Positions 36-18,561 of a DNA stretch of 64,000 nt are shown here, in pieces. A model generated the notes under the pieces. That model had not been told where the DNA came from. It did not search any database and saw only the letters and a program-made list of their open reading frames with translations. How positions within the stretch are numbered: position 1 is the stretch's first letter; each line of letters starts with the position of its first letter. Source of the DNA: Candidatus Hydrogenedens sp. Its GTDB lineage: Bacteria; Hydrogenedentota; Hydrogenedentia; Hydrogenedentales; Hydrogenedentaceae. The stretch lies in contig JBMFRC010000012.1 in NCBI GenBank assembly GCA_049968235.1, positions 33,366-97,365 on the forward strand, written 5' to 3'. A program made the translations under genes and the position numbers.

Positions 36-1016
36 TTAAATAAACATACCTATGACTTCAGCCATGCCTGCATTTACAGGAGGAGTTCCGGCACCAGTTG
101 GGTTTAATGGGTCTTCCGCAACATAACGGATAAATTCCACATGCCCATCCATATATAGAACATTGGAACCTCCGGGGATATGATTAAATCCTTCAGGTTT
201 GGTAGAAACATGGTCAAGCATAATCCATACAGAACTCTGCGCCTGTGCGGAAGATGCTGGATTATTAATATCTGTAATTAAGAATCTTTCAATACCTTCT
301 CTTAGGCGATATACAGTACTACCACCACCATTACCATTACCTGCCGTTACAGTTACATCCTTGTCAACAAGATTAGGCCATTGTGCAGGATTCGCAAAAA
401 CAGGAACGAGGGTATTTAGTGCAAGTTCAATAAATTGACCGGGTCCGGTTACAGGCTGATTAATTAATGGAGGAACTGCAGGTAGTGTCATCGGATTGTC
501 TGTAGTTTTAGCACGGTCTAAAACCCAGCCGATATATACATAACTTTCGTCTATTGCAGCAGCACCATAGTGTTCGTTAGTGCATAGCCAGCCTGCGGTG
601 TTTTCTCCTGTTGCATCATTAGTAATATCTTTGATTGTGCTTTGTGCATCGGATGGACAAAAAATTATTGCCGGATCAGTTAAATATTCCGGATACAAAG
701 TCGTTAAATCGGGACCCATAGCAAGGAATACAGACCTTTGAAAAGTGGTGTATGCTGGATTGGCAACATCACAATCTCTATAAATAGGTTGTGAGCCTTC
801 CCTTACGAGAATTCTTGGGAATCTTTCACCTTTTGATTCCCCACAATACATTTTGAACACTAATCCCCATTGCTTCAAGTTATTTTGACAACTTGACCTT
901 CTTGCCGCTTCGCGAGCCCTTGCTAACGCAGGCAGTAAAATAGCAGCAAGAATTCCGATAATAGCAATGACGACTAACAATTCGATTAAAGTAAAACCTT
1001 TTTTACTTTTCTTCAT
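36..1016 (-). CDS. Prepilin-type N-terminal cleavage/methylation domain protein with DUF1559-like C-terminal domain (type II secretion pseudopilin-like)
   Basis: The N-terminus [26 protein letters not shown] is a class III signal / N-methylation motif. The C-terminal motif [17 protein letters not shown] matches the DUF1559 H-x-GG-x-N-x-L-x-x-DGHV signature. Confidence 0.8.
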
Positions 1017-2255: not shown

Positions 2256-4478
2256 TTATCTTACATATTGTTTTCTGATATGTAATGCAGAACAGAAAGT
2301 CATTACACATACAATTAATACAATTGTTAATGTTGAACTAACAGGAACTTCATCTGAAATGATAACATGAAATTCATAAGTAGCATTGGTTTTCTGTCCA
2401 TCATCATATTCACAAATGTATATTCCTGTATCCTCAATTTGTGCGTTGGGAATCCAGAGGGAACGGCAATGAGTATTTAATCCTCTTTCTTCTAAACTAC
2501 CATTTAGTTTGGACCAATTAAATGAAGAATTCATAGATACAGGTTCCGGAACACGCAAGCATATATCAGACCCTGCTTTGAAAATTCCGCCCAATGTTGA
2601 AGAAGAATGGCATTCTTCACAATCCGAACCGGGATATACAACAGGATTTAATGCAGAATTAATATATGCCTGTTTTTTCTCTTCATAACTCATATGTGAA
2701 CGGACAAAATATTCATATTCCTGTTTATTTGTCCAGCCATCCCCATCCGCATCACCATCAGGACCGAAAAATTGAGGTAGAAGTTGATAGAAGGTAGGAA
2801 CAATGATATTTACATGTATATTGAAACTGGGGTCTATAGCCTGTGCTGCTATAGAAATTACAGTCGGTATCATCGTGGATTCTTGATTACCTAAGGTCAT
2901 GTATCCTGCTAACATTTGTGGCAAACCATAAAATATGGTATTTACGATACTTCCTTCACCACCACAGTCTGTAATCATTCGTTGCATGTTTTGGTTGAAA
3001 GCATTCACAGCAATTTGATGACTTATACCGCCATTGGCAGTAAAATCAATAGATGTATTGTTATAACATTCCGTGATAAGTGAAAATTCTAACGAATCTA
3101 ACATGCCATTTCCGGAAATAACAATAGGGTCTATAGATATTTGTCCACCATTCAAATCACATTCTTCAGGACTAAACGAAAGTCCTTCTGCTCCCTGGTC
3201 TCCTAATAAAACATAATATGCACTTAAATTTTCATGTAAATATTGCATACCTGCTACAATTTCATGGTCAGGTTGCCTTATAAAATCATGATACTCCCAA
3301 ACGCCGTTATAACAAAAATCTCCATTGCCTTCTGTATTTCCCGTGCCGGGTCCTCCTAATGGTTTTGAAGTGCTATCTACAATAGTATCATCATCAATTA
3401 CACAAAGTGTAACATTTCCTACTGCCCCTGCAGTATCTACAACCACATTGTAAACTTGATTACCCTGAACATTATTGACAGATAAGATAGAAAGGGGAGA
3501 GGATAAACTATCCTTTGCATTAAAATCAGATGTATCAACATTAGAAACAGGTTCACTAAAAGTTACAGAAAAAGTCATTGTATTTCCGTTAGAAGAAATA
3601 CTATTAATTAAATAAACTTTTGGATAATCCAACCATTGACTAATGAATTCCGACATGCATCTCTGGGCTAATATTTTATAACCTGCTTGAGATAAATGTA
3701 TATCCCCATCAAACAGTCCATCAGGATGAACTAATGAACATGGGTCTCCTCCGGGAAAAGGTGTATAGGTGGGATAATTACCTGGATAAGGGACAGAATG
3801 AGGGGGCAAATTTGTGGGAGTTGATGTCCCAAAATGATATTGCATTAACCCAAGATTATGAACATAATAAACTCGTGGCTTGCTATCTGCCAGAGCCTTT
3901 TTGGCTTGTTCAAATCTTACAAAAGCATTTTGCTGGTCACATATTGAACAACCACCACGGTCTCTGCCTGCAAAAGTATATCCACAAAGAGCAACGCGAA
4001 TATCGGGACGAACTGAAAGAATTTCATCAATAATACCACTCATATAATTTACAATCGTATTAATAATGTATTCTTCCTGGGATGGATTAGAAAGCATATC
4101 ACAATTCCAACGAGATGTTTGTGGAGTTCCTCGAAGGAAATCATTTCCTCCTAATGTTATCAATACAATATCAATTGTAGGATATTTTGCTAATTCTTCC
4201 TTTACATTTTGAATATAATTATATTCTTCAGGGTAAAATTCAAATGCTCGTGCTCCCATAATAGCAGTACGACTACCTATCTCTCTTAAATGTTCCATTC
4301 CAGGTGTTTCGTTAAAAATTTCTTTAAAGGTTCTAAATGCCCACATAAAACCAGTCCAACTATCACCGACTAATAGAACCCGTGGAATTTCCTCTTGAGA
4401 AAATGCAACAGAACTATCTATGAGAATAAGTAAAGATAAGAAACAAATCAAGAATAAACTTAAAATACTATGTTTCAT
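2256..4478 (-). CDS. Secreted multi-domain SGNH/GDSL-like hydrolase with C-terminal Ig-like region and hydrophobic anchor
   Basis: Signal peptide MKHSILSLFLICFLSLLILIDSSVA, then LLVGDSW (GDS block) and ITLGGNDF (GxND block) of SGNH hydrolases. The long C-terminal extension ends in a TM-like segment. Confidence 0.5.
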   Translation of the reverse strand: MKHSILSLFLICFLSLLILIDSSVAFSQEEIPRVLLVGDSWTGFMWAFRTFKEIFNETPGMEHLREIGSRTAIMGARAFEFYPEEYNYIQNVKEELAKYPTIDIVLITLGGNDFLRGTPQTSRWNCDMLSNPSQEEYIINTIVNYMSGIIDEILSVRPDIRVALCGYTFAGRDRGGCSICDQQNAFVRFEQAKKALADSKPRVYYVHNLGLMQYHFGTSTPTNLPPHSVPYPGNYPTYTPFPGGDPCSLVHPDGLFDGDIHLSQAGYKILAQRCMSEFISQWLDYPKVYLINSISSNGNTMTFSVTFSEPVSNVDTSDFNAKDSLSSPLSILSVNNVQGNQVYNVVVDTAGAVGNVTLCVIDDDTIVDSTSKPLGGPGTGNTEGNGDFCYNGVWEYHDFIRQPDHEIVAGMQYLHENLSAYYVLLGDQGAEGLSFSPEECDLNGGQISIDPIVISGNGMLDSLEFSLITECYNNTSIDFTANGGISHQIAVNAFNQNMQRMITDCGGEGSIVNTIFYGLPQMLAGYMTLGNQESTMIPTVISIAAQAIDPSFNIHVNIIVPTFYQLLPQFFGPDGDADGDGWTNKQEYEYFVRSHMSYEEKKQAYINSALNPVVYPGSDCEECHSSSTLGGIFKAGSDICLRVPEPVSMNSSFNWSKLNGSLEERGLNTHCRSLWIPNAQIEDTGIYICEYDDGQKTNATYEFHVIISDEVPVSSTLTIVLIVCVMTFCSALHIRKQYVR

Positions 4479-4628
4479 TTTTGTCTCCTTTTTATTTATG
4501 TTATGTAATAAAAAACAATAATTAAACTAAATAAATTATAGCAATAAAAAAAGAAAAAAATCAATAAAATATACTTAAGAGATATTTTTTTAATAAAAGA
4601 AAAAATTTTAATGAAAAGTATTTTAAAT

Positions 4629-4657
4629 TTGACAAGGAGTAAACAGTGTGCTATAAT
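4629..4657 (+). promoter_or_regulatory. Near-consensus sigma70 promoter (TTGACA-17nt-TATAAT) for rex-hydrogenase operon
   Basis: TTGACA at 4629-4634, a 17-nt spacer, and TATAAT at 4652-4657, lying 80 nt upstream of the rex ATG. Confidence 0.5.
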
Positions 4658-4675
4658 TTGTTCATAAATTCACAA
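4658..4675. promoter_or_regulatory. Rex operator-like inverted repeat 1 (TTGTTCATAAATTCACAA)
   Basis: An 18-nt palindrome-like site resembling the Rex box consensus TTGTGAAnnnnTTCACAA. It sits immediately after the -10 box, where a repressor would overlap the transcription start. Confidence 0.5.
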
Positions 4676-4701
4676 TTATACTTACAGGTAAGTATATAAA
4701 T

Positions 4702-4719
4702 TTGTTTGTAAATTCACAA
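4702..4719. promoter_or_regulatory. Rex operator-like inverted repeat 2 (TTGTTTGTAAATTCACAA)
   Basis: A second 18-nt site sharing the same half-sites (TTGT...TTCACAA), 26 nt downstream of site 1 and 18 nt before the rex ATG. Confidence 0.45.
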
Positions 4720-4736
4720 TTAAAAGTATAAAGTAT

Positions 4737-5432
4737 ATGGTATCTGAGAAAACAGTAGAAAGATTAAGTTTATACCGCCGAATACTTCAACAATTGAGGG
4801 TCGAGAGTAAAGAAACTATAATGTCCCATGAACTTGCGAATATGTTACACATAAAGCCAGCACAGGTACGCAGGGATATTATGCAATTAGGTTATTCAGG
4901 AATACCTAATAGTGGTTATAGAATTCGACCTCTTTTAGAGAGTATTGCAAATTTTTTAGATTCCCCGTTGCCTCAGAGTGCTGTTTTAGTAGGTGTTGGA
5001 CATTTAGGACTTGCGTTATTGGCTAACTTTGCAGGACGATGGAGGCAATTAGCTATTCGTGCCTCTTTTGATAAAGACCCTGCAAAAGTAGGACAGACTT
5101 TTCATGGTTGTCGTTGTTATGCTATGTGTGATTTGCAAAAAGTAATTGCGGAGACAAAAAGTGTAGTAGGCATCCTGGCAATACCGGGTGAAAGTGCCCA
5201 ATCTGTTTGTGACCTTCTTGTTCAGTCAGGTATTAGTGGCGTATTAAATTTTTCCCCATTGCGAATTAAAGTGCCTGATAATGTCTTTATAGAACATGTT
5301 GACCTTTCCGCTACGTTTGAAAAAGTTTCGTTCTTTGCAAGAAGAATGAAACATTATGCAGAAGAAGAAAAACGGAAAGTAGAAAATGAAATTACTGAGG
5401 GTGAATACGAAACATTAACAACCAATCAATAA
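4737..5432 (+). CDS. rex: Redox-sensing transcriptional repressor Rex (NADH/NAD+-responsive)
   Basis: N-terminal winged-helix with LSLYRRIL, then Rossmann GVGHLGLALLANF, then ILAIPGESAQSVCDLLVQSGISGVLNFSP. These are the canonical Rex blocks; the protein also has an acidic C-terminal tail. Confidence 0.85.
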   Translation: MVSEKTVERLSLYRRILQQLRVESKETIMSHELANMLHIKPAQVRRDIMQLGYSGIPNSGYRIRPLLESIANFLDSPLPQSAVLVGVGHLGLALLANFAGRWRQLAIRASFDKDPAKVGQTFHGCRCYAMCDLQKVIAETKSVVGILAIPGESAQSVCDLLVQSGISGVLNFSPLRIKVPDNVFIEHVDLSATFEKVSFFARRMKHYAEEEKRKVENEITEGEYETLTTNQ

Positions 5433-5458
5433 ATAAAAAATTTTGTAGGAGATAGAAT

Positions 5459-5983
5459 ATGAATGAAGAATCAAAGCATGCGTGTATGGAAGAAGCAAGT
5501 GAAGAAGAACTGCTTGCTCGGCTTGATGAAGTAATTGCAGAATATAAGGACAAGCCCGGTGCTCTTATTCCTGTTCTGCAGATTGCTCAGGCTATGTTTG
5601 GTTATCTACCCGAAAGTGCATTAAAAAAGATTAGTTTGGGACTGAACAAACCGTATAGTGAAGTTGCAGGTGTGGTAACATTTTACTCATTCTTTTCAAC
5701 CCAGCCTCGTGGAAAACATATGATTCGTGTCTGTTTAGGAACTGCTTGTTATGTCCGTGGTGGCAAACAGGTTCTTTCTGCAATTAAGGATAAACTCCAT
5801 ATTGATGTTGGAGAGACCACGAAAGACCGTATGTTCTCTTTAGAGGTGGCTCGTTGTTTTGGTGCTTGTGGGCTTGCTCCTGCCATTATGGTGGATAACG
5901 ATGTGCATCAACGGGTAAAACCTGCCCGAATTCAGGCTATTTTAGACCAGTATTTAGACAAAAACACAGAAAAAAATAAATAA
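5459..5983 (+). CDS. hndA: NuoE-like [2Fe-2S] subunit of multimeric [FeFe] hydrogenase (HndA/HydC-like)
   Basis: Thioredoxin-like 2Fe-2S fold with the Cys pattern CLGTACYVRGG ... CFGACGLAPA, typical of NuoE/HoxE/HydC. A good RBS (TAGGAGATAGAAT-ATG) precedes the start. Confidence 0.8.
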   Translation: MNEESKHACMEEASEEELLARLDEVIAEYKDKPGALIPVLQIAQAMFGYLPESALKKISLGLNKPYSEVAGVVTFYSFFSTQPRGKHMIRVCLGTACYVRGGKQVLSAIKDKLHIDVGETTKDRMFSLEVARCFGACGLAPAIMVDNDVHQRVKPARIQAILDQYLDKNTEKNK

Positions 5984-6005
5984 GAAATAAATAAGGAGAA
6001 AAGCC

Positions 6006-6377
6006 ATGTCAAATATTATTCATTCTCCAGAAGACCTTAATGCTTTACGAGAAAAGGCAATTAAGGACATTGAGATTCGTAATTCACATAAAGATTTGGT
6101 GATTACTGTTCACATGGGAACATGTGGTATTGCTGCGGGTGCCAGAGAAGTATTAAAAAATATCATCTCTGAAATTTCTGCTATAGGTATAACCAATGTT
6201 ACAGTCCGTCAATCTGGATGTGCAGGTCTCTGCGACCGTGAACCCATGATTACGGTTACTCATAAATCCTCCGGTTCTGAATATCGTTATGGAAAATTAA
6301 ACACGGAAAAGATACGAGAAATTGTGAAACAGCATATTGCAGAAGGTAAACCTGTGATGGAATATTTAATTTCCTGA
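6006..6377 (+). CDS. hndB: Thioredoxin-like [2Fe-2S] ferredoxin (HndB-like small hydrogenase subunit)
   Basis: 123 aa with cysteine motifs HMGTCGIAAGA and CAGLCDREP of 2Fe-2S Trx-like ferredoxins. It sits between the NuoE-like and NuoF-like genes, as in hnd operons. Confidence 0.7.
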   Translation: MSNIIHSPEDLNALREKAIKDIEIRNSHKDLVITVHMGTCGIAAGAREVLKNIISEISAIGITNVTVRQSGCAGLCDREPMITVTHKSSGSEYRYGKLNTEKIREIVKQHIAEGKPVMEYLIS

Positions 6378-6460
6378 TGAAGAAATACAGGGTAAATTCG
6401 GATTCCCATAAAGTGGTTGAGATGAACATGTATAGCAAAATAAGAAAGAATGATATAGAA

Positions 6461-7906
6461 ATGAAAATGAACATATTACATCTATTTCTTATTTTATTTT
6501 TATGTTCATCCGCAACCTTTACTGAAATATCTGATTGGGAAACCATCTCACTTTCGGATACAGGAGAAGCATTACAAAATCCCGGCATGGGATGGGTATT
6601 ACATTTTTACGATAATGTTCCTGAAAATTATGGTTCTAAATTAGCCCCTTCAGATACTGTTGATGAATTCCCTGCCCTTTCAGTTATTTATTTGCGAATA
6701 GCATGGTCGTTTTTAGAACCTGAAGAAGGAAAGTATAACTGGTCTATATTGGATACTCCTTCTCAACGATGGATTTCTAAAGGGAAACAAATTGCTTTGC
6801 GCATTACCTGTAGTGAAACTCCTATTCCATGGGCGACACCAAAATGGGTTTATGAAGCAGGAGCCAAAGGTAATTTCTTCATTCCTACCCAGGGGATAAA
6901 AGAAAATGGGACACATTGGGAACCCGAATTTGATGACCCTGTTTTCTTGGATAAGTTGGATAATTTTTTAGCAGTGTTAGCAAAGAGATATGATGAAAAT
7001 CCGGAAATAGCCTTCATAGATATGGGTTCATTAGGAGTGTGGGGAGAAGGTCATGTATGGCATTCCACACAAAAACATATTTCGACGGAAACCATAAAAA
7101 AACACATTGATTTGCACATAAAGCACTTTAAAAACACAATAATTGCTCTAAATGATGACCTTATCACAAATGGGCAAAAATTGGATGTAATTCCCGAAGA
7201 GAAAAAAGAACTCCTCAATTATGCTATCAAAAATGGGTTAACACTTCGCGATGATAGTATTCTTGTTCAGGGTGGAGATAATGTATATTTTAGTGCAAGC
7301 CTTGCGGAATACTTCTGGCGAAATAGACCTATCATTTTAGAATCTGAACATTATGGACCATCAAAGGCTGAAAGGCATTGGGGGGACGGAAGTAAATATT
7401 TACAGGCTGTAGAAGATTACCATGCAAGTTATACTTCTATTCATTGGTGGCCAAGGGAGTTTTTACAAGAAAACAAAGATTTGATAGATAAAATCAATCT
7501 TCGTTTGGGGTATCGTATTGTCCCTACCGAAGTTAAATGGCAAAAGACAGTAAAAATATCCGAGAAAAAATGGGATATATCCTACCGTTGGGCAAATAAA
7601 GGAGTGGCACCTTGTTATCGGGATGTATATCCCATTATTACATGGAAAGATGAGAAAGGAGGAATTGTTGCTGTTTTTACAGATGAGACATTTAATCTCA
7701 AACAATTACCAATAGGGAAGCAGGATGAATTAAAAGAAATTGAGGTAAAAAAATCTTTTTTTATTCCTTTTTTATTGAAAGAAGGAAATTATACAGTATT
7801 CATTTCAGCGGGTTCTATTACGGGCACGCCTGAAATTCAATTACCGTTAAACAACACAGACCATGAAAAAAGATATGTTATAGGTAAAGTTAATGTTGTT
7901 TTGTGA
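6461..7906 (+). CDS. Secreted TIM-barrel glycoside hydrolase-like protein (GH42/GH35-like N-terminal motif; DUF4832-like)
   Basis: Signal peptide MNILHLFLILFLCSSATF. AWSFLEPEEGKYNW matches the GH42/GH35 W-x-x-LEP-x-x-G-x-Y motif, and GSLGVWGEGH matches GH42-like blocks. The most likely start is internal, at the MKMNILH methionine at 6461. Confidence 0.5.
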   Translation: MKMNILHLFLILFLCSSATFTEISDWETISLSDTGEALQNPGMGWVLHFYDNVPENYGSKLAPSDTVDEFPALSVIYLRIAWSFLEPEEGKYNWSILDTPSQRWISKGKQIALRITCSETPIPWATPKWVYEAGAKGNFFIPTQGIKENGTHWEPEFDDPVFLDKLDNFLAVLAKRYDENPEIAFIDMGSLGVWGEGHVWHSTQKHISTETIKKHIDLHIKHFKNTIIALNDDLITNGQKLDVIPEEKKELLNYAIKNGLTLRDDSILVQGGDNVYFSASLAEYFWRNRPIILESEHYGPSKAERHWGDGSKYLQAVEDYHASYTSIHWWPREFLQENKDLIDKINLRLGYRIVPTEVKWQKTVKISEKKWDISYRWANKGVAPCYRDVYPIITWKDEKGGIVAVFTDETFNLKQLPIGKQDELKEIEVKKSFFIPFLLKEGNYTVFISAGSITGTPEIQLPLNNTDHEKRYVIGKVNVVL

Positions 7907-7977
7907 AAAAAAATATAAAGATATAAATAAAAACTTCAGAAATGAAGCATACACAAGTTATGGAAAGGAGAAAAAAA

Positions 7978-10900
7978 ATGAGTCCATTTCGAAGTCATGT
8001 ATTAATCTGTGCAGGTGCAGGATGCGTGGCATCAGGTTCGATGGAAGTAAGTTCCGCCTTTTCGGAGGCACTTGCCAAACATGGGCTAAATGAAGAAATT
8101 CAAGTAGTCCATACAGGATGTTTAGGACCCTGTGCTATTGGTCCCGTGGTCGTGATTTATCCAGATGCTATTTTTTATCAAGGTGTTAAAACAACAGATG
8201 TTGAAGATATTGTTGTTGAGCATCTGTTAAAAGGTCGGCCTGTTAGTCGCTTGAATTTCAAATCTACTACCACATCACAAATTATTCCTGCACTGCAGGA
8301 GATTGGTTTTTTCAAGCAACAGACAAAGATAGTTTTAAGGAACTGTGGTATTATAGACCCTACAAAAATTGAGGAGTATATTGCGAGAGATGGGTATCAG
8401 GCTTTAGCAAAAGTACTGACAAAAATGACTCCACAGCAGGTAGTAGAAGAAGTGAAAAAATCTGGACTTCGGGGAAGAGGTGGTGCAGGATTCCCAACAG
8501 GTATAAAGTGGGAGTTAACTCAAAAAGCCCACGGAGATAAGAAATATGTTCTTTGTAATGCTGATGAAGGTGACCCGGGCGCATTTATGGACAGAAGTGT
8601 TTTGGAAGGTGACCCCCATAGTGTTATTGAAGCTATGATTATAGCAGGATATGCCATTGGTTCTGACCAGGGATATATTTATGTTCGAGCAGAATATCCT
8701 TTAGCGGTAGAGAGATTAAATATAGCGATAAAGCAAGCCAGAGAATATGGTTTGTTAGGTAAGAATATTATGGGAACGAATTTTAATTTCGACCTTGAAA
8801 TACGAATGGGTTCAGGTGCTTTTGTGTGTGGAGAAGAAACCGCATTGATGCGTTCTATCGAAGGGAAACGCGGAGAACCCAGACCCCGTCCACCGTTCCC
8901 TGCATATAAAGGTTTATGGGAAAAACCCAGTTTATTAAATAATGTAGAAACCTATGCAAACATCCCTGTAATTATATTAAAAGGTGCTGATTGGTTTGCT
9001 TCCATAGGAACAGGTAAAAGTAAAGGAACAAAAGTGTTTGCCTTAGCAGGTGCTGTAAACAACACAGGATTGGTCGAAATTCCGATTGGTACACCATTAG
9101 GTGAAATTATTTATGATATTGGCGGTGGAATTCCGCGAGGCAAACAATTTAAGGCAGCGCAAATTGGAGGTCCTTCCGGCGGTTGTATTCCAAAACAACA
9201 TCTGAATGTGCCGGTAGATTACGAGTCATTACAGGAATTAGGAGCGATTATGGGTTCCGGTGGATTAATTGTTATGGATGAAGACACATGTATGGTCGAT
9301 ATGGCTCGTTTCTTCCTTGACTTTGTTCAGGATGAGTCATGTGGAAAATGTGTCCCATGCCGGGTCGGAACGAAAAGAATGTTGGAAATTGTGACAAGGA
9401 TTTGTGAGGGTCGGGGAGAAGAAGGCGATATTGAAAAACTTATTGAATTAGGACAACAGATTAAAGATGCATCGTTATGTGGATTAGGGCAGACAGCTCC
9501 AAACCCTGTTCTTTCTGCAATACGGCACTTCCGTGATGAATTTGAAATTCATATTCGTGAACATAAATGTCCGGCGGGTGTCTGTCCATCTCTTGTTCGT
9601 GCTCCTTGTATGAGTGCTTGCCCGGCAAATGTTTACATTCCGGGTTTTGTCTCATTAATATCTGAAAAACGATATGCGGAAGCACTTCGTGTGCATCGTG
9701 ACCAGAACCCCTTTGCATCTGTATGTGCCCGTGTGTGTTTCCATACTTGTGAGGACAAATGTAGAAGAGCTACTCTGGATGAAGCGGTATCCATACGCGG
9801 ATTGAAGCGATTTATGGTAGAGCAAGAAGTTACAATACAACTACCTGAAATTCGTGAAAATGAACAAAATCTTCGCAAAAAGGTGGCTATTATAGGAGCA
9901 GGTCCTGCAGGTCTAACCTGTGCTTATTTCCTTGCACGATTAGGCTATCAACCCCGTGTTTTTGAATCTGCACCCAGGCCCGGCGGTATGTTAGTTCAAA
10001 CAATTCCCGCTTATCGGTTACCCCGAGAAGAATTGGCTCGAGAAATTCGTATGATAGAAAGAATGGGCGTTGTCATAGAAACTGAAAAAGCCTTAGGTCG
10101 TGATTTTACATTACAAAGCCTTCGTGATGATGGATATGAGGCTATTTTTCTCGGAATAGGTGCTCCATCAGGTCAAAAATTGAGAATTCCAGGCGAAGAT
10201 GCGGATGGCGTTGTCGAAGCCATAGACTTCCTTCGTGAATACAATCTCCGTGGTTCTGTTCCTGTAGGGAAAAATGTTGTTATTATAGGAGGTGGTAATG
10301 CAGCTATTGATGCGGCAAGAACTGCCATTCGTTTAGGAGCAAAAAAAGCAACGATTCTTTACCGCAGAACAAGAGAAGAGATGCCTGCGTATAAAGAAGA
10401 GATCGAAGAAGCAGTTAATGAAGGTGTTATTTTAAAAATGTTAGTAACTCCACTGGAGATTTTGACAGAAAACGGAAAAGTTGTTGGTGTAAAATGTCAA
10501 CACATGTGGTTAGGAGAATATGACCGTTCCGGTAGAAGAAGACCTGAAGCCAAAAAGGGTGAAGAACCCTTTGTTGAAGAAGCAGACCAGGTTATTGCAG
10601 CAATAGGGCAAACTGTTGATTTAAAACGTTACCTGGATGGATTAAATGTTAAGTTAACACCTTCTGGTTTCTTGTGGGTAGACCAATTATATGGTCAGAC
10701 CTCTATTGAATGGTTATTTGCAGGTGGTGATATTAGTTCAGGTCCTTCTTCCGTAGCAGAAGCAATCGGTGCTGGTGAAAGAGCTGCAGTTGGAATTGAT
10801 AAGTATCTTACTGGAGAAGAACATGCTTTCTGGCGCGAACCCTATATGGTAGATACAGAATTTGACCCAGATTCCGACCCGGTAGATTTCCCAAGAGCAA

Positions 10901-11049
10901 AAATGAAACTTTTACCTGTTGAAAAGAGGGTACACAACTTTAATGAAGTTGAAATCCCGTTTACGGAAACATTAGCGGTAAGAGAGGCACGCCGTTGCTT
11001 ACGTTGTGATTATCGTGAAACAAAAATAAGTTTAAATACACAACAATAA
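7978..11049 (+). CDS. hndC: Fusion flavoprotein: HndC/HydB (NuoF-like, FMN/NADH, Fe-S) + GltD/NfnB-like FAD/NAD(P)H oxidoreductase domain
   Basis: The N-terminal Trx-like 2Fe-2S domain is CAGAGC...CLGPC. The NuoF blocks are GLRGRGGAGFPTGIKW, CNADEGDPGAF and 4Fe-4S CGKCVPCRVG. From about residue 540 come the GltD-like Fe-S region (CPAGVCP...CMSACP), FAD site VAIIGAGPAGLTCAY and NAD(P)H site VVIIGGGNAAIDAA. I chose the start at MSPFRSH (7978) because it has a GGAAAGGAG RBS. Confidence 0.8.
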   Translation: MSPFRSHVLICAGAGCVASGSMEVSSAFSEALAKHGLNEEIQVVHTGCLGPCAIGPVVVIYPDAIFYQGVKTTDVEDIVVEHLLKGRPVSRLNFKSTTTSQIIPALQEIGFFKQQTKIVLRNCGIIDPTKIEEYIARDGYQALAKVLTKMTPQQVVEEVKKSGLRGRGGAGFPTGIKWELTQKAHGDKKYVLCNADEGDPGAFMDRSVLEGDPHSVIEAMIIAGYAIGSDQGYIYVRAEYPLAVERLNIAIKQAREYGLLGKNIMGTNFNFDLEIRMGSGAFVCGEETALMRSIEGKRGEPRPRPPFPAYKGLWEKPSLLNNVETYANIPVIILKGADWFASIGTGKSKGTKVFALAGAVNNTGLVEIPIGTPLGEIIYDIGGGIPRGKQFKAAQIGGPSGGCIPKQHLNVPVDYESLQELGAIMGSGGLIVMDEDTCMVDMARFFLDFVQDESCGKCVPCRVGTKRMLEIVTRICEGRGEEGDIEKLIELGQQIKDASLCGLGQTAPNPVLSAIRHFRDEFEIHIREHKCPAGVCPSLVRAPCMSACPANVYIPGFVSLISEKRYAEALRVHRDQNPFASVCARVCFHTCEDKCRRATLDEAVSIRGLKRFMVEQEVTIQLPEIRENEQNLRKKVAIIGAGPAGLTCAYFLARLGYQPRVFESAPRPGGMLVQTIPAYRLPREELAREIRMIERMGVVIETEKALGRDFTLQSLRDDGYEAIFLGIGAPSGQKLRIPGEDADGVVEAIDFLREYNLRGSVPVGKNVVIIGGGNAAIDAARTAIRLGAKKATILYRRTREEMPAYKEEIEEAVNEGVILKMLVTPLEILTENGKVVGVKCQHMWLGEYDRSGRRRPEAKKGEEPFVEEADQVIAAIGQTVDLKRYLDGLNVKLTPSGFLWVDQLYGQTSIEWLFAGGDISSGPSSVAEAIGAGERAAVGIDKYLTGEEHAFWREPYMVDTEFDPDSDPVDFPRAKMKLLPVEKRVHNFNEVEIPFTETLAVREARRCLRCDYRETKISLNTQQ

Positions 11050-11066
11050 TAAAAGGAGAATAAGCC

Positions 11067-12839
11067 ATGCCAAAATTAACTATAGATGGAATTCCCGTAG
11101 AAGTTCCGGAAGGAACAACAATACTTCAAGCGGCAAAGCAAATAGGATTAAAAATACCGACACTTTGTTATCTTGAAGAAGTTCAAGCCATCGGTGCCTG
11201 TCGTGTTTGCGTTGTTGAAGTTGAAGGAGCACGAACTTTGGTCGCTTCTTGTGTTGCTCCTGTTGCGGAAGGAATGAAAGTCCATACAAATTCAAAAAGA
11301 GCCCGTGAGGCACGAAAAACAGTTGTAGAATTGTTACTATCCGACCATGATGGCGATTGCCAGATTTGTGTTCGAAATGAAGATTGTGAACTTCAGGAAT
11401 TGGCACGAACACTTGGGATAAAGGAAATTCGCTATCAAGGTGAGAAGAGAAAACGGATTGTGGATGAAAGCACTCCCGCTGTTGTTCGTGATACATCGAA
11501 ATGTGTCTTATGTAGAAGATGTATAACGGTTTGCAATGAGGTTCAGGGTGTTGGCGGACTGTTCCCACAAAATCGTGGCTTTGAAACGGTAATAGGTCCC
11601 GCATTTTGTAGTGATTTGGATGATGTCGTATGTGTTCAGTGTGGTCAATGTAGTGCGGTTTGTCCTGTGGGTGCTATTGTAGAAAGAGACCAGATTGCGG
11701 ATGTCTTTTCTGCATTAGATGACCCGACAAAAACAGTCGTTGTCCAGACAGCCCCTGCAATTCGTGCCGCATTGGGAGAATGTTTTGGTTTACCACCCGG
11801 AACTTTAGTAACAGGGAAGATGGTTACCGCACTTCGTAGACTGGGTTTCCATGCCGTTTTTGATACTAACTTTGCCGCTGACCTTTGTATTATGGAAGAA
11901 GGTACAGAACTGCTAACTCGATTGAAGAAAAAACTGGTAGATGGGGAGAATATTGCTCTTCCTATGTTTACCAGTTGTTCTCCGGGGTGGATTAAGTTTT
12001 TAGAACATTTCTACCCGGATATGATTCCAAATGTATCTACATGCAAATCCCCACAGCAAATGTTTGGTGCTATAGCAAAGACCTATTATTCCAAGAAAAT
12101 TGGTAAGAAACCCGAAGATATTGTTGTTGTTTCTATTATGCCCTGTACAGCGAAGAAATATGAACATCAGCGTCCCGAGATGAACAGTTCCGGTGTTCGT
12201 GATGTGGACTATGTGCTTACAACGCGTGAATTGGGTCGGATGATAAAACAGGCAGGCATTGATTTTGTAAATCTACCCGATGACAAGCAAGACTCACCAT
12301 TAGGACTATCCTCTGGTGCTGCGGATATTTTTGCGAATACCGGGGGTGTTATGGAAGCGGCAATTCGAACTGTTTATGAAATAGTAACAGGACGCGAATT
12401 ACCATTCGATGGACTTCATGTTGCTCCTATCGAAGGATTAGAAGGAATCAAGGAAGCCTCCTTGAAGATAGAAAAATGTGTGCCTGAATGGTCTTTCTTA
12501 GAAGGGGCTACCGTAAATGTTGCTGTGGCTCATGGATTGGGTAATGCCAGAGCATTAATAGAGCGAGTTCGCTCAGGTGAAAAGGCGTATCACTTTATAG
12601 AAATTATGACCTGTCCCGGTGGATGTATTGGTGGAGGAGGACAACCTCGCTTTACAGATAATTCAGTTCGTCTTGCTCGTATTCAGGCCATATACAAAGA
12701 GGATGAAGGGAAACAACTTCGTAAGTCCCATGTAAATCCTGACATACAAAAATTGTATAAGGAATTTTTAGGACATCCGAATAGTGAAGTTTCACATCAT
12801 CTATTACATACGCATTACAATCCGAGAACAAAAGTATAA
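11067..12839 (+). CDS. hydA: [FeFe]-hydrogenase catalytic subunit (HydA/HndD) with N-terminal 2Fe-2S and 4Fe-4S ferredoxin domains; non-canonical L1 motif TSCSPGW
   Basis: The N-terminal plant-type 2Fe-2S is CYLEE...CRVC, and the 4Fe-4S Fd motifs are CVLCRRCITVC and CVQCGQCSAVCP. For the H-cluster, L2 is MPCTAKKYE and L3 is EIMTCPGGCIGGGGQP, both canonical. L1 reads FTSCSPGW where TSCCPxW is expected. Confidence 0.9.
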   Translation: MPKLTIDGIPVEVPEGTTILQAAKQIGLKIPTLCYLEEVQAIGACRVCVVEVEGARTLVASCVAPVAEGMKVHTNSKRAREARKTVVELLLSDHDGDCQICVRNEDCELQELARTLGIKEIRYQGEKRKRIVDESTPAVVRDTSKCVLCRRCITVCNEVQGVGGLFPQNRGFETVIGPAFCSDLDDVVCVQCGQCSAVCPVGAIVERDQIADVFSALDDPTKTVVVQTAPAIRAALGECFGLPPGTLVTGKMVTALRRLGFHAVFDTNFAADLCIMEEGTELLTRLKKKLVDGENIALPMFTSCSPGWIKFLEHFYPDMIPNVSTCKSPQQMFGAIAKTYYSKKIGKKPEDIVVVSIMPCTAKKYEHQRPEMNSSGVRDVDYVLTTRELGRMIKQAGIDFVNLPDDKQDSPLGLSSGAADIFANTGGVMEAAIRTVYEIVTGRELPFDGLHVAPIEGLEGIKEASLKIEKCVPEWSFLEGATVNVAVAHGLGNARALIERVRSGEKAYHFIEIMTCPGGCIGGGGQPRFTDNSVRLARIQAIYKEDEGKQLRKSHVNPDIQKLYKEFLGHPNSEVSHHLLHTHYNPRTKV

Positions 12840-12858
12840 GATAAGATTTAATAATAAA

Positions 12859-12882
12859 GGGGAGTGTGAGTGAGCACTCCCC
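12859..12882 (+). terminator. GC-rich hairpin after hydA (possible weak terminator/attenuator)
   Basis: GGGGAGTG-tgagtgag-CACTCCCC forms an 8-bp stem 20 nt after the hydA stop codon, but no U-tract follows it. Confidence 0.25.
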
Positions 12883-12964
12883 ATACAATCCTATGAAGTT
12901 GTATAATAGGAATATAGGTAGGAGTAAGTAGGTTTATGAGTGTCTAATATTTAGGAAAGAAAAA

Positions 12965-13360
12965 ATGGAAAATAAAATTATAATGGTCGTTGATGATGAT
13001 ATTGATGTTCAGGATTTCTGTAAAATTGTATTAGGAAGAGAGGATTATCAGGTTATAACATTTTCCAACTCAGAGAGTGCACTCGAATATTTATCGTCGA
13101 ACACTCCCTCTGTAATTATTACCGATTTAATGATGGGTGGAATTGATGAGGGTGTCCAATTTGTTAATAAGATTAGAGGATTCGATAATGAGAAGGCAAA
13201 AATTCCAATTATAATGATTACAGGCATAAATTCAAAATTAGGATATGACATCACTCCCCGTTCCGATGAAGAAAAAAAACAAATGAAAATCGATGAATTT
13301 ATATCAAAACCTTTAAATCCAAAACAGTTAATAACAGCACTAAAAAAAGTAATCAAATAG
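12965..13360 (+). CDS. Single-domain response regulator (CheY-like receiver only)
   Basis: 131 aa with acidic pocket VVDDD, a phospho-acceptor in SVIITDLMMGG and a conserved K in FISKP. There is no output domain. Confidence 0.75.
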   Translation: MENKIIMVVDDDIDVQDFCKIVLGREDYQVITFSNSESALEYLSSNTPSVIITDLMMGGIDEGVQFVNKIRGFDNEKAKIPIIMITGINSKLGYDITPRSDEEKKQMKIDEFISKPLNPKQLITALKKVIK

Positions 13361-13412
13361 AAATTTGTTTCGTATAGATACTGTTTAATTTATAAATATA
13401 AGGAAATGAGTT

Positions 13413-14810
13413 ATGAGTTCAAATGTAGAAACTGTTCCTATTAATGAGGAATTTATTTTTGATACTTTAAAAAATAGTGTCAAGAAAGATGCGGTTTACA
13501 TCAAAGAAATTCTTGCAAAAGCCCTTGAATTAAAGGGATTAGATGCGACAGAAGTAGCCACGCTTGCAACAATAAGTGACCCTGACCTGTTAAAAGAACT
13601 TTTCGATACAGCCCGAAAAGTCAAAGAGGAGATTTACGGTAAACGATTAGTTCTTTTTGCCCCACTTTATGTATCAAATCTTTGCAAGAATGAATGCTTA
13701 TATTGTGCTTTCCGTAAAAGTAACAAGATGGTTCGTAGAAAAGCATTGACACAAGAAGAAGTCCGTAGAGAGGTTGAAACATTGGTTGACCAGGGGCATA
13801 AACGCATTCTATTAGTGGCAGGCGAGTCCTATCCTTCCGAAGGATTTGATTATGTTATTCATTGTATCGAAACAATATATAGTGTAAAGCGGGATAGGGG
13901 AGAGATACGACGCGTAAATGTGAATATAGCACCCTTATCGTTAGAGGAATTTAAAAGGCTGAAATCAGCAAAAATTGGGACATATCAGTTATTTCAAGAA
14001 ACATACCACAGAGAAACATACCAAAAAGTCCATGTAGGTGGACTTAAAAAGGATTTTGACTGGAGAATTACCGCTATGGACCGTGCTATGAAAGCTGGCA
14101 TTGATGATGTGGGTGTTGGCGTTCTTTTTGGCTTATTTGATTGGAGATTTGAAATACTTGCTTTAATGCAACATATTAAACATTTAGAAGATACCTTCGG
14201 TGTAGGATGTCACACGATAAGTGTACCTCGCCTTGAACCTGCTATAGGTTCAGACCTGGCTTCACATCCCCCTTATCCGGTATCAGACCTTGATTTCAGA
14301 AAAATTGTAGCTATACTAAGACTTGCTGTGCCCTATACAGGAATAATAATGTCCACTCGTGAAACTCCCAATATACGAAGAGAAACCTTTGCACTGGGTG
14401 TATCACAAATATCAGCAGGCAGTAGAACGAATCCAGGTGGGTATACAGGCAGTGAAGAAGAGGATATGAGCCAATTCTCATTAGGTGACCATCGCAGTCT
14501 GGATGAGGTTATTCGTGATGTTACAAAATTAGGTTATATCCCATCCTTCTGCACGGCTTGTTATCGTTTAGGCAGAACAGGTGCTGACTTTATGGACCTT
14601 GCCAAGCCGGGTCTTATCAAGAACCATTGTGAAGTTAATGCTTTAAGCACTTTTGCTGAATATCTGGAAGATTATGCATCCTCCGAAACAAAACAAATAG
14701 GTTGGGCAAAGATTGAGGAAATTTTAAATACAATGCCTGAAGTTCGGAAAAAACGTACCGAAGGGATGTTGGCTCGTGTAAAAGCCGGTGAACGGGATGT
14801 ATATGTGTAA
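13413..14810 (+). CDS. hydG: [FeFe]-hydrogenase maturase HydG (radical SAM tyrosine lyase)
   Basis: The radical SAM motif is CKNECLYCAF. The C-terminal auxiliary-cluster motif CTACYR...(22)...HC (Cx2Cx22C) separates HydG from ThiH. A length of about 465 aa fits. Confidence 0.9.
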   Translation: MSSNVETVPINEEFIFDTLKNSVKKDAVYIKEILAKALELKGLDATEVATLATISDPDLLKELFDTARKVKEEIYGKRLVLFAPLYVSNLCKNECLYCAFRKSNKMVRRKALTQEEVRREVETLVDQGHKRILLVAGESYPSEGFDYVIHCIETIYSVKRDRGEIRRVNVNIAPLSLEEFKRLKSAKIGTYQLFQETYHRETYQKVHVGGLKKDFDWRITAMDRAMKAGIDDVGVGVLFGLFDWRFEILALMQHIKHLEDTFGVGCHTISVPRLEPAIGSDLASHPPYPVSDLDFRKIVAILRLAVPYTGIIMSTRETPNIRRETFALGVSQISAGSRTNPGGYTGSEEEDMSQFSLGDHRSLDEVIRDVTKLGYIPSFCTACYRLGRTGADFMDLAKPGLIKNHCEVNALSTFAEYLEDYASSETKQIGWAKIEEILNTMPEVRKKRTEGMLARVKAGERDVYV

Positions 14811-17508: not shown

Positions 17509-18561
17509 ATGGATAAAAAAAATATTATTAATTGGCTTCGTGAAAAAAACGAAGATAAATTAAACGAACTATGGGAATTGGCGGATTCTATCCGCAGTAA
17601 ATATGTAGGAGAAGAGGTGCATCTTCGAGGTTTGATAGAAATATCAAACTATTGCAAAAAAAACTGTCTATACTGTGGAATACGAATTTCTAATAGAAAA
17701 TTAACCCGATATAGAATGGAAGACAGCGAGATTTTGGAATGTGTGGAATTTGCCAAAAGAAATGGCTATGGAACAATAGTCCTTCAATCCGGCGAAGACC
17801 CCGATTTTACAAAAGAAAAAATCGCCGAATTAATTAGAAAAATAAAAGAAAATGCAAATGTGGCTATTACATTAAGTTTAGGAGAGCAGGAAAAACACAC
17901 ATTAGAATTATGGAAATCTGCCGGAGCCAATCGTTATCTTCTTCGTTTTGAAACCTCAGATGAAATCCTATTTAAAAGAATCCATTCGTCAGAACAAGCA
18001 AAAAGTTTAGAGAATAGAATTAAACAACTAAAAATACTTAAACAATTAGGCTACGAAGCAGGAAGTGGGATAATGATTGGAATACCCTATCAAACTTATG
18101 AAAGCATCGCTAATGATATCCTACTTTTCAAACAATTAGACCTTGATATGATAGGAATAGGACCATACATTCCTCATCCCGATACACCTTTAGGACAGGA
18201 ATATCTTAATAAATATAAAAAAGATGATGAAAAATTTGTCCCAAACACAGAATTAATGACATATAAAGTCCTTGCATTAACCCGAATTATATGTCCAACC
18301 GTAAACATTCCTGCCACCACTGCCCTTGCAACTGTGAATACACGAGAAGGTCGCATTTTAGCCCTGAAGAGGGGAGCCAATGTTATCATGCCGAATCTCA
18401 CTCCACCAAAATATAAAAAATTGTATGAAATTTATCCAGGTAAATCGTCTGCTGATGAACCTCCAGAAATTATTCATCAAAGTATAATGAAGATTATAGA
18501 AAAGGCAGGAAGAAAAGTAGGAACAGGGATGGGAAATCGCAAAAAAATCATAGATATTTAA
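17509..18561 (+). CDS. hydE: [FeFe]-hydrogenase maturase HydE (radical SAM, BioB-like)
   Basis: CKKNCLYCG radical SAM motif, a BioB-like TIM barrel length of 350 aa, and a position at the end of the hydG-hydF cluster. Confidence 0.85.
   Translation: MDKKNIINWLREKNEDKLNELWELADSIRSKYVGEEVHLRGLIEISNYCKKNCLYCGIRISNRKLTRYRMEDSEILECVEFAKRNGYGTIVLQSGEDPDFTKEKIAELIRKIKENANVAITLSLGEQEKHTLELWKSAGANRYLLRFETSDEILFKRIHSSEQAKSLENRIKQLKILKQLGYEAGSGIMIGIPYQTYESIANDILLFKQLDLDMIGIGPYIPHPDTPLGQEYLNKYKKDDEKFVPNTELMTYKVLALTRIICPTVNIPATTALATVNTREGRILALKRGANVIMPNLTPPKYKKLYEIYPGKSSADEPPEIIHQSIMKIIEKAGRKVGTGMGNRKKIIDI

What the first reader, a model, noticed from the sequence alone, without database searches (positions are those of the whole stretch)
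6377..7906. Secreted GH42-like glycosidase gene inserted in the middle of the hydrogenase subunit operon
A signal-peptide-bearing TIM-barrel glycosidase-like gene (AWSFLEPEEGKYNW, GSLGVWGEGH) sits between hndB and the hndC-like gene on the same strand, with short spacers and no obvious terminator. It has no known functional relation to hydrogenases. Either it is a recent insertion that is now co-transcribed, which has consequences for subunit stoichiometry, or the protein has an unexpected role. Its likely start is the internal MKMNILH (6461), because the upstream 28 codons lack an RBS and signal-peptide logic.
Basis: partly seen in the sequence, partly recalled or inferred. Interest (0 to 1): 0.5.

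Follow-up and report, generated by a model that had tools for sequence, protein, structure and literature searches.

The report
Secreted glycosidase-like gene inside hydrogenase operon
A gene for an exported, sugar-cleaving-type enzyme of unknown specificity sits in the middle of a hydrogen-producing enzyme's operon; this is an old insertion kept by one whole group of Hydrogenedentota bacteria, a curious but not revolutionary piece of operon evolution.

Summary
ORF 6377/6461-7906 (+) encodes a signal-peptide-bearing TIM-barrel protein of Pfam family DUF4832, with a partial GH42-like match. It lies between hndB and the hndC-gltD fusion gene of a Rex-linked [FeFe]-hydrogenase operon of a Candidatus Hydrogenedens MAG.

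It is not a recent insertion. About ten distinct related loci (DUF4832 64-84% identical) carry the same arrangement. Synonymous sites are near or at saturation, dN/dS is about 0.07-0.08, and GC3 matches the neighbouring genes.

Sister Hydrogenedentota lineages, and all loci with the same hydrogenase from other phyla (L011-L090, except L043), have hndB or hndA directly next to hndC. DUF4832 homologues at 63% identity or less are never next to hydrogenase genes. This points to one ancestral insertion, fixed in one clade.

I found no terminator or consensus promoter flanking the gene. In six lineages the only strong hairpin follows hndD. The only strong promoter lies upstream of rex, with two conserved Rex-like boxes. 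The gene is therefore probably co-transcribed. It also has a consistently weak ribosome-binding site.

Two near-invariant glutamates (E196 and E294, on the β4 loop and β7) and family fusions to carbohydrate-binding, surface-anchor and glycosidase domains suggest an active extracellular glycosidase. It is not a true GH42. Its substrate, and any link to hydrogen metabolism, are unknown.

The parts
4629..4657 (+). Sigma-70-type promoter, TTGACA-17 nt-TATAAT with an extended -10 TG. It is the only 12/12 match in 4400-13500.
   Evidence: CTTGACA...TATAAT is conserved in all 10 related loci.
4658..4719 (+). Two Rex-operator-like boxes, TTGTTCATAAATTCACAA (4658-4675) and TTGTTTGTAAATTCACAA (4702-4719). 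They flank a conserved palindrome, TATACTTAC-AG-GTAAGTATA (4677-4696).
   Evidence: The boxes sit 40-45 bp apart (44 bp in seven of ten loci) and are conserved in all ten related loci. No other such box occurs anywhere in those loci. Consensus as in PMC2883068.
4737..5432 (+). rex, the redox-sensing repressor and first gene of the unit.
   Evidence: Pfam Put_DNA-bind_N plus CoA_binding.
5459..5983 (+). hndA / bfuC, a NuoE-like 2Fe-2S subunit.
   Evidence: Pfam 2Fe-2S_thioredx, 174 bits.
6006..6377 (+). hndB / bfuD, a small 2Fe-2S ferredoxin-like subunit.
   Evidence: JGI names homologues HndB.
6422..7906 (+). The DUF4832/GH42-like gene. The start is ambiguous: 6461 (NCBI, 481 aa), or 6422 as favoured by orthologues. 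6377 is the longest ORF.
6461..6514 (+). Signal-peptide core (MKMNILHLFLILFLCSSA). Cleavage after SSA is my inference.
   Evidence: Sequence. The model has a helix at residues 3-16, then a low-confidence linker. Homologues all have hydrophobic N-termini.
6536..7510 (+). (β/α)8 barrel domain. It holds E196 (codon 7046-7048, GEGH motif after β4) and E294 (codon 7340-7342, end of β7).
7517..7900 (+). C-terminal β-sandwich domain, covered by most of the Pfam DUF4832 match.
7907..7977 (+). AT-rich 71-nt spacer ending in the strong Shine-Dalgarno sequence GGAAAGGAG of hndC. It has no hairpin and no consensus promoter.
7978..11049 (+). hndC / bfuB, sub-type I: NuoF-like FMN module fused to a DPD_II 4Fe-4S domain and a GltD-like FAD/NAD(P) domain.
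   Evidence: Pfam. Start 7978 is supported by the Shine-Dalgarno sequence and by 1021-1023-aa orthologues.
11067..12839 (+). hndD / bfuA, the [FeFe]-hydrogenase catalytic subunit.
   Evidence: Pfam Fe_hyd_lg_C, 330 bits.
12859..12882 (+). GC-rich hairpin GGGGAGTG-N8-CACTCCCC (-18.4 kcal/mol). It is the likely 3' end of the transcription unit.
   Evidence: An equivalent hairpin of -18 to -23 kcal/mol follows hndD in 6 of 6 lineages.

Best explanation
What it is. The gene encodes an exported glycoside-hydrolase-type enzyme of the uncharacterised DUF4832 family. The protein has a Sec signal peptide, a (β/α)8 barrel and a C-terminal β-sandwich. Its likely catalytic pair is E196 (loop after β4) and E294 (end of β7).

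How it got there. The gene was inserted once, between hndB and hndC, in the ancestor of one Hydrogenedentota sub-clade (the Candidatus Hydrogenedens group). It has been inherited vertically with the operon ever since, under purifying selection.

How it is expressed. It is transcribed as an internal cistron of a six-gene mRNA, rex-hndA-hndB-duf4832-hndC-hndD. That mRNA starts at a single strong promoter carrying two Rex operators and ends at a hairpin after hndD. The gene is therefore switched on together with the hydrogenase when the NADH/NAD+ ratio rises. Its weak ribosome-binding site keeps translation far below that of the hydrogenase subunits.

What is shown:
- the gene, its domains and its fold class;
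- the conserved residues;
- the distribution of the arrangement, the empty sites and the selection regime;
- the absence of terminators and the strengths of the ribosome-binding sites.

What is inferred:
- co-transcription and Rex control;
- export of the protein;
- glycosidase activity;
- any adaptive link, for example glycan foraging or envelope and matrix glycan processing tied to the fermentative, H2-evolving state.
For: Identity of the gene:
- Pfam DUF4832 plus a partial GH42 match.
- Confident model, pLDDT 92, with a barrel plus a β-sandwich.
- E196 and E294, with D98, are the only carboxylates conserved in at least 92% of 114 representatives at 33-55% identity.
- Family members are fused to F5/8-type-C (CBM32-like), SLH, Big, GH78 rhamnosidase and sulfatase modules.
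- Hydrophobic N-termini in all 45 homologues whose N-termini were printed.

Old, single insertion:
- Same gene order in L001/2, L003-6, L007, L008/9, L091, L092 and L094-L100.
- 7 of 7 metagenome loci at 68% identity or more are in the operon; the loci at 63% or less show no hydrogenase-gene match in the tblastn table.
- The operon-borne copies form one clade in a neighbour-joining tree.
- Empty sites of 37-50 nt in sister Hydrogenedentota loci L174, L176 and L178, whose HndC is 76-86% identical.
- No DUF4832 gene in any locus of the same hydrogenase from other phyla (L011-L090, except L043).
- dN/dS 0.07-0.08 with dS of 1.5 or more.
- GC3 of 0.27, against 0.25-0.30 for the neighbours.

One transcription unit:
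- A 12/12 promoter at 4629-4657.
- Two conserved Rex-like boxes, found only there.
- No terminator-like site and no non-random structure around the gene.
- The only strong hairpin follows hndD, in 6 of 6 lineages.
- The hndB-duf spacer is 13 nt in L007 and L008.

Weak translation:
- Shine-Dalgarno/anti-Shine-Dalgarno pairing energy is -0.7 to -6.0 kcal/mol for duf, against -7.3 to -11.5 for hndA-D, in 7 lineages.
Against: - There are no expression data. The AT-rich 55-80-nt spacer before hndC could hide a non-consensus promoter, and a promoter could lie inside hndB.
- One lineage (L001) has a -10.7 kcal/mol hairpin between hndB and duf.
- No family member has a demonstrated activity, and none has a solved structure by sequence search. 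The catalytic assignment rests on conservation and strand positions, not on a measured active-site geometry.
- Sister lineages run the same hydrogenase without the gene. Homologues elsewhere are stand-alone, with no recurrent partner. A functional tie to hydrogen metabolism is therefore not required.
Confidence: 0.65

Rival explanations
1. Neutral hitch-hiker. The gene landed in the operon by chance and is kept only because that is where its promoter now is. The protein is useful in its own right as an ordinary extracellular glycosidase, but co-regulation with the hydrogenase has no adaptive meaning. This differs from the best explanation only in denying any physiological logic to the linkage.
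For: - Sister Hydrogenedentota and all other phyla operate the same hydrogenase without it.
- The homologues at 63% identity or less lie in unrelated, heterogeneous contexts.
- In Armatimonadota the closest homologues sit with PfkB kinase and sugar-isomerase-like genes, with GH1, GH15 and galactokinase genes nearby.
- The product is extracytoplasmic, whereas the hydrogenase is cytoplasmic.
Against: - The position has been retained across about ten distinct related loci, with saturated dS, while flanking genes were rearranged. For example, L003 lacks the response regulator and hydG downstream.
- The weak ribosome-binding site is uniform, which suggests tuned expression.
- Neither point excludes neutrality.
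Confidence: 0.4
2. Transcriptionally insulated gene. The glycosidase-like gene has its own promoter within hndB or the upstream spacer, and hndC-hndD are re-started from a promoter in the AT-rich downstream spacer. The arrangement would then be nesting rather than co-expression.
For: - The downstream spacer is 55-80 nt and AT-rich in every lineage, long enough for a promoter.
- The scan only recognises sigma-70 consensus sites.
- L001 has a moderate hairpin upstream of the gene.
Against: - There is no promoter-like hit at either junction. The only + strand hit inside hndB is a 9/12 match at 6139-6166, and the region as a whole has no more hits than shuffles.
- The spacers are not conserved apart from the Shine-Dalgarno sequence.
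- The upstream spacer is 13 nt in two lineages.
- No terminator lies on either side.
- Rex-like boxes occur only upstream of rex, so hndC and hndD would escape the regulator encoded in their own cluster.
Confidence: 0.15
3. Not an enzyme. The protein would be a catalytically dead barrel used as a glycan-binding or structural envelope protein, or would have a direct role in hydrogenase assembly or function.
For: - No member of the family has been characterised.
- The classical clan GH-A 'N-E' motif at the end of β4 is absent; the sequence there is IDMG.
Against: - The two carboxylates expected for a 4/7-type glycosidase are the most conserved acidic residues in the family, and both are present here.
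- dN/dS is low.
- The signal peptide places the protein outside the cytoplasm, away from the hydrogenase and its maturases.
- Family fusions are to carbohydrate-active modules.
Confidence: 0.07

Closest known systems
Pfam DUF4832 (PF16116) proteins, often annotated 'beta-galactosidase' or 'DUF4832 domain-containing protein'
   Same: Same domain signature. Thousands of homologues share it: 2776 word-index hits and 3112 cluster representatives. They have the same ~460-480-aa core with a signal peptide. The identical protein is already annotated this way by NCBI.
   Different: No member has a known substrate. All other sampled members (63% identity or less) lie outside hydrogenase loci. Some carry extra C-terminal modules.
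GH42 β-galactosidases (e.g. Thermus thermophilus A4, PDB 1kwg/1kwk)
GH14 β-amylases (PDB 3voc, 1b90)
   Different: Identity is 12% and there is no sequence-level match. GH14 is an inverting α-1,4-glucan exo-hydrolase, and nothing here indicates that specificity.
Sub-type I BfuABCD / HndABCD electron-bifurcating [FeFe]-hydrogenase clusters of Hydrogenedentota (Zheng & Huang 2024, PMC11406978)
   Same: Same subunits and order: C/HndA, D/HndB, B/HndC with DPD_II plus an FAD/NAD(P) domain, and A/HndD.
   Different: The main text and the held supplementary text of that paper do not mention a glycosidase or DUF4832 gene inside the cluster. Other genes are only marked 'X' in the legend of Fig. 4. Sister lineages and other phyla have D adjacent to B.
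Rex-controlled hydrogenase and fermentation operons (e.g. the Caldicellulosiruptor bescii Rex regulon, PMC6391272; Staphylococcus aureus Rex box TTGTGAAW4TTCACAA, PMC2883068)
   Same: A rex gene lies next to hydrogenase genes, and inverted-repeat boxes of the TTGTnnnnnnnnnCACAA type sit at the promoter.
   Different: Here rex is the first cistron of the hydrogenase operon itself, there are two boxes 44 bp apart with an extra conserved palindrome between them, and an exported glycosidase-like gene belongs to the unit.

Membership tests
Pfam DUF4832 (PF16116) | Match to the family profile above the curated gathering score | tested here: met
   39.3 bits against a cut-off of 29.2, residues 356-477 of the 509-aa ORF. 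NCBI names the identical protein as DUF4832 domain-containing.
GH42 β-galactosidase family | Full-length match to the GH42 catalytic domain (PF02449) | tested here: inconclusive
   33.1 bits, above the cut-off of 21, but only profile positions 32-131 of 376 match. PDB GH42 chains match at E 0.01-0.09 over about 100 residues.
GH42 β-galactosidase family | Trimerisation domain (Glyco_hydro_42M) and GH42 C-terminal domain | tested here: not met
   No such Pfam hit at E <= 0.01. The C-terminal part is a DUF4832-type β-sandwich.
GH42 β-galactosidase family | Acid/base Glu in an N-E motif at the end of β4 and nucleophile Glu at the end of β7 | tested here: inconclusive
   β4 (residues 183-187) ends in I-D-M-G, not N-E. 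The conserved Glu (E196) lies 9 residues later in G-E-G-H. E294 is at the end of β7.
Clan GH-A-like / 4-7 superfamily (β/α)8 glycosidases | (β/α)8 barrel fold similar to known glycoside hydrolases | tested here: met
Clan GH-A-like / 4-7 superfamily (β/α)8 glycosidases | Two catalytic carboxylates after strands 4 and 7 | tested here: met
   E196 is conserved in 96% and E294 in 97% of 114 representatives. With D98 they are the only carboxylates conserved in at least 92%. Both are present in the window. Their catalytic role is inferred, not shown.
CAZy family assignment | Match to a dbCAN/CAZy family HMM | not testable with these tools
   No CAZy or dbCAN library is available. Literature searches for DUF4832 and DUF4874 found no characterised member.
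Hnd/Bfu sub-type I bifurcating [FeFe]-hydrogenase operon | NuoE-like, small 2Fe-2S, NuoF-like with DPD_II plus FAD/NAD(P) domain, and H-cluster subunit genes in one same-strand cluster | tested here: met
   Pfam and NCBIfam hits. Matches the sub-type I description in PMC11406978.
Rex regulon member | Rex-type inverted-repeat operator at the promoter of the transcription unit | tested here: met
   Two boxes, at 2 and 3 mismatches from TTGTGAAN4TTCACAA. They are conserved in position in 10 of 10 related loci and absent elsewhere in those loci. On its own, the count in the window is not above chance (6 found, 8.8 expected); it is the positional conservation that carries the weight.
Rex regulon member | Rex binding, and de-repression by NADH | not testable with these tools
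   Needs EMSA or expression data.
Sec-exported protein | N-terminal signal peptide: basic n-region, hydrophobic h-region, small residues at -3 and -1 | tested here: inconclusive
   The sequence MNMYSKIRKNDIEMKMNILHLFLILFLCSSA|TF fits by eye, and all homologues inspected have comparable N-termini. No signal-peptide predictor was available.

The most novel reading that the evidence does not exclude
The linkage is functional. Under this reading the clade has wired an exported glycan-cleaving enzyme directly to its NADH/NAD+ sensor and its H2-evolving hydrogenase. Reductive stress would then simultaneously open the H2 valve and remodel extracellular or envelope glycans. The purpose could be to release fermentable sugar, or to reshape the matrix and so tighten contact with H2-consuming partners in syntrophic aggregates. 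DUF4832 genes also accompany Pel exopolysaccharide loci in Gram-positive bacteria (PMC7112168). If true, this would be a rare case of an extracellular CAZyme under direct redox (Rex) control inside a hydrogenase operon.
Probability: 0.12. Interest if true: 0.6.

Novelty: new variant of a known kind. Interest (0 to 1): 0.33.

Why it matters
- It gives a clean, datable example of a foreign cistron fixed inside an operon for a multi-subunit enzyme. Occupied and empty sites are both available in sister lineages, and the ribosome-binding-site strengths show how subunit stoichiometry can be protected.
- It flags a large, uncharacterised family of glycosidase-like proteins, with thousands of members and a clear candidate catalytic pair, as worth biochemical study.
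- It offers a marker (hndB-duf4832-hndC) for one Hydrogenedentota clade.
- If the co-regulation is adaptive, it would link extracellular glycan processing to cellular redox state in syntrophic or fermentative H2 producers. As it stands, this is a modest curiosity, not a new mechanism.

Tried and rejected
- Sequence and profile searches of the PDB found only marginal GH42 and GH35 matches over 60-100 residues. NCBIfam gave nothing for the protein.
- Foldseek against the PDB gave only low TM scores, 0.3-0.45. The afdb50 library was unavailable.
- I looked for conserved neighbours of homologues outside Hydrogenedentota by clustering 279 flanking ORFs. There was no recurrent partner beyond lineage-level synteny in Armatimonadota and a few sulfatase or GFO-type oxidoreductase neighbours, so guilt-by-association gives no substrate.
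- I looked for Rex boxes or promoters at the two junctions and found none.
- I looked for RNA structure in the spacers; they fold no better than shuffles.
- I looked for paralogues in the window and found none.
- I searched the main text and held supplements of the Hydrogenedentota hydrogenase paper for any mention of the inserted gene and found none.
- Lipoprotein reading rejected: the Cys in LFLCSS is not conserved in orthologues.
- Start at 6377 considered unlikely, despite the TGATG overlap with the hndB stop codon: orthologous ORFs have no conserved start there.
- Recent horizontal transfer rejected on GC3, dS and phylogeny.
Full report
**1. The observation**

ORF 6377-7906 on the + strand is real and contains the quoted motifs.
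- Pfam finds a partial Glyco_hydro_42 match: 33.1 bits, profile positions 32-131 of 376.
- Pfam also finds a DUF4832 match: 39.3 bits against a cut-off of 29.2.
- NCBIfam finds nothing.

The gene is flanked on the same strand by these genes:
- rex, 4737-5432
- hndA, 5459-5983
- hndB, 6006-6377
- a NuoF-like/DPD_II/GltD-like fusion (hndC), 7978-11049
- the [FeFe]-hydrogenase catalytic subunit (hndD), 11067-12839
- a receiver-only response regulator, then hydG, an aspartase-like gene, hydF and a radical-SAM gene that is probably hydE

The identical 481-aa protein (start 6461) is in NCBI as 'DUF4832 domain-containing protein [Candidatus Hydrogenedens sp.]'. The window therefore comes from a Hydrogenedentota MAG. 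In the terms of Zheng & Huang 2024 (PMC11406978), the cluster is a 'sub-type I BfuABCD' hydrogenase.

**2. Is it a recent insertion? No.**

*Occupied sites.* Looking up homologues on their contigs shows exactly the same order, rex-hndA-hndB-DUF4832-hndC-hndD, in every case. These are separate contigs from different samples and assemblies. By their identities to the window they represent about ten distinct lineages.

| Locus | DUF4832 identity to the window |
|---|---|
| L001/L002 | 80% |
| L091 | 71% |
| L092 | 70% |
| L003-L006 | 70% |
| L007 | 64% |
| L008/L009 | 64% |

*Metagenome scan.* A scan with the protein returned 80 loci.
- All 7 loci at 68% identity or more lie in this operon.
- The loci at 63% or less show no match to any of the operon genes in the tblastn table.

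*Composition and selection.*
- Synonymous sites between the window and these relatives are near or at saturation (dS 1.0 to above 3).
- dN/dS of the gene is 0.07-0.08, similar to rex and hndB.
- Its GC3 is 0.27, against 0.25-0.30 for the neighbouring genes.
- In a neighbour-joining tree of 57 homologues the operon-borne copies form one clade.

**3. Is hndB directly followed by hndC elsewhere? Yes.**

- A genome scan with the HndC fusion gave 80 loci from many phyla. Apart from the one Hydrogenedentota locus (L043, identical to L007), none has a DUF4832 gene. In these loci hndA or hndB abuts hndC, for example in L017, L023-L027 and L067.
- HndB homologues fall into two groups: one at 70% identity or more, the DUF-bearing clade, and a next group at 55-63%, many labelled Hydrogenedentes.
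- Three contigs from that second group (L174, L176, L178) have HndC 76-86% identical to the window. They carry the operon with an empty 37-50-nt junction between hndB and hndC.

The insertion therefore happened once. It came after this split and before the radiation of the Candidatus Hydrogenedens group.

**4. Transcription and translation signals**

*Promoter.* The only perfect sigma-70-type promoter in 4400-13500 is at 4629-4657. It is followed by three elements:
- a Rex-like box, TTGTTCATAAATTCACAA
- a palindrome, TATACTTAC-AG-GTAAGTATA
- a second Rex-like box, TTGTTTGTAAATTCACAA

In the window alone, matches to the Rex consensus are not more frequent than chance: 6 found against 8.8 expected. 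However, the promoter, both boxes (40-45 bp apart; 44 bp in seven of ten loci) and the palindrome core are conserved in all ten related loci. No other such box occurs in those loci.

*Terminators.*
- There is no terminator-like site on the + strand between 5199 and 8285.
- The spacers around the gene fold no better than shuffled sequence.
- In six lineages the junctions around the gene have only weak local structure. One exception is a -10.7 kcal/mol hairpin in L001.
- A GC-rich hairpin of -18 to -23 kcal/mol follows hndD in all six lineages; in the window it lies at 12859-12882.

*Spacers.*
- The hndB-duf spacer is 13 nt in L007 and L008.
- The duf-hndC spacer is 55-80 nt and AT-rich. It is conserved only in the Shine-Dalgarno region.

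*Ribosome-binding sites.* Pairing energy with the anti-Shine-Dalgarno sequence, over seven lineages:

| Gene | Energy (kcal/mol) |
|---|---|
| hndA-hndD | -7.3 to -11.5 |
| duf | -0.7 to -6.0 |
| rex | +1.9 to -3.7 |

The simplest model is a single Rex-controlled rex-to-hndD mRNA. On it, the regulator and the glycosidase-like cistron are translated weakly and the hydrogenase subunits strongly. This is inference; there are no expression data.

**5. What the protein is**

*Fold.*
- The AlphaFold model, built from 57 homologues, is confident: pLDDT 92, pTM 0.87.
- It shows an N-terminal helix (the signal peptide), an eight-stranded β/α barrel and a C-terminal β-sandwich.
- Foldseek agrees, but with low TM scores.
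- No solved structure is a sequence relative.

*Conserved residues.* Across 114 cluster representatives at 33-55% identity, E196 (G-E-G-H, on the loop after β4) is conserved in 96% and E294 (end of β7) in 97%. With D98 they are the only carboxylates conserved in at least 92%. This is the arrangement of a 4/7-type glycosidase. The classical N-E motif at β4 is absent.

*Family architecture.* Family members are fused to F5/8-type-C (CBM32-like), SLH, Big_2/Big_4, GH78 rhamnosidase and sulfatase modules. All N-termini inspected are signal-peptide-like.

*Context elsewhere.*
- The closest homologues outside Hydrogenedentota are in Armatimonadota (61-63% identity). They sit beside PfkB kinase and sugar-isomerase-type genes, with GH1, GH15 and galactokinase genes nearby.
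- Otherwise the neighbours are heterogeneous.

My conclusion is that this is an exported glycoside hydrolase of unknown specificity. It belongs to the uncharacterised DUF4832 family and is not a bona fide GH42, because the trimerisation and C-terminal domains are absent and only a quarter of the profile matches.

**6. Start codon**

- Orthologues carry a basic N-terminal extension of 10-17 residues. L095 and L091 have no Met nearer the hydrophobic core.
- The closest relatives share the '...KVVEMN...' segment.
- This favours 6422 (MNMYSKIRKNDIEMKMNIL...).
- The ATG at 6377, which overlaps the hndB stop codon, has no conserved counterpart.
- The point is minor and unresolved.

**7. Comparison with what is known, and novelty**

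- Both the hydrogenase cluster type and the protein family are already catalogued.
- The main text and the held supplementary text of the Hydrogenedentota hydrogenase survey do not mention this gene.
- Papers mentioning DUF4832 give no function. They report an accessory gene near Gram-positive Pel loci and a horizontally transferred gene in amphioxus.
- What is new here is the documented architecture: a clade-specific, anciently fixed insertion that is apparently co-transcribed and weakly translated, placing an exported CAZyme-like gene in a Rex-linked bifurcating-hydrogenase operon, with empty sites in sister lineages.
- It is a new variant of a known kind and of moderate-to-low interest.
- A real physiological coupling, such as redox-gated glycan foraging or matrix remodelling in syntrophic H2 producers, is not excluded. 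It has no direct support.

Noticed in passing
window 4629-4719: The promoter architecture upstream of rex is highly conserved: CTTGACA-17-TATAAT, then two Rex-like boxes 44 bp apart, with a perfect palindrome between them (TATACTTAC-AG-GTAAGTATA, 4677-4696; conserved core TACTTA-N4-TAAGTA). It is present in 10 of 10 related loci. The palindrome could be a second operator or a 5'-UTR hairpin.
   Followed up: partly
window 7942-7980: The longest ORF for the hndC fusion starts at 7942. The strong Shine-Dalgarno sequence (GGAAAGGAG) and the 1021-1023-aa orthologues point to the ATG at 7978.
   Followed up: yes
window 14816-16237: An aspartate ammonia-lyase-like gene (NF008909, 629 bits) sits between the [FeFe]-hydrogenase maturase genes hydG (13413-14810) and hydF (16247-17500)/probable hydE (17509-18561). 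The same placement after hydG is seen in L001, L091 and L092, but not in L008, where hydF follows hydG. A link to H-cluster maturation is possible but was not examined.
   Followed up: no
window 12965-13360: A receiver-only response regulator (131 aa) lies between hndD and hydG. It is conserved in most relatives (L001, L008, L091, L092) and in the sister lineage L176.
   Followed up: no
window 12859-12882: A GC-rich hairpin, GGGGAGTG-N8-CACTCCCC, follows hndD. Its T-run is on the minus-strand side only. An equivalent hairpin is present in 6 of 6 lineages and is the likely 3' end of the operon.
   Followed up: partly
window 2256-4478 (-): A 740-aa secreted protein with weak GDSL-lipase-like and Ig-like matches is transcribed divergently from rex. 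This neighbour is conserved in the DUF-bearing lineages examined (L001, L003-L008, L091, L092) but not in sister loci L174-L178.
   Followed up: no
window 23603-26404 and 33509-36031: Two GH38 α-mannosidase-type genes lie in the same window, consistent with a glycan-using heterotroph.
   Followed up: no
L178/L179 2443-3984 and 12337-14367: In a sister Hydrogenedentota lineage, the same sub-type I operon (without the DUF4832 gene) is flanked by two sensory [FeFe]-hydrogenase-like genes fused to histidine-kinase/HATPase domains.
   Followed up: no
window 36-1016 (-): A type IV pilin-like protein with an N-terminal methylation motif plus DUF1559 (SBP_bac_10). This type is typical of the Planctomycetota-like lineages in which the family is expanded.
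   Followed up: no
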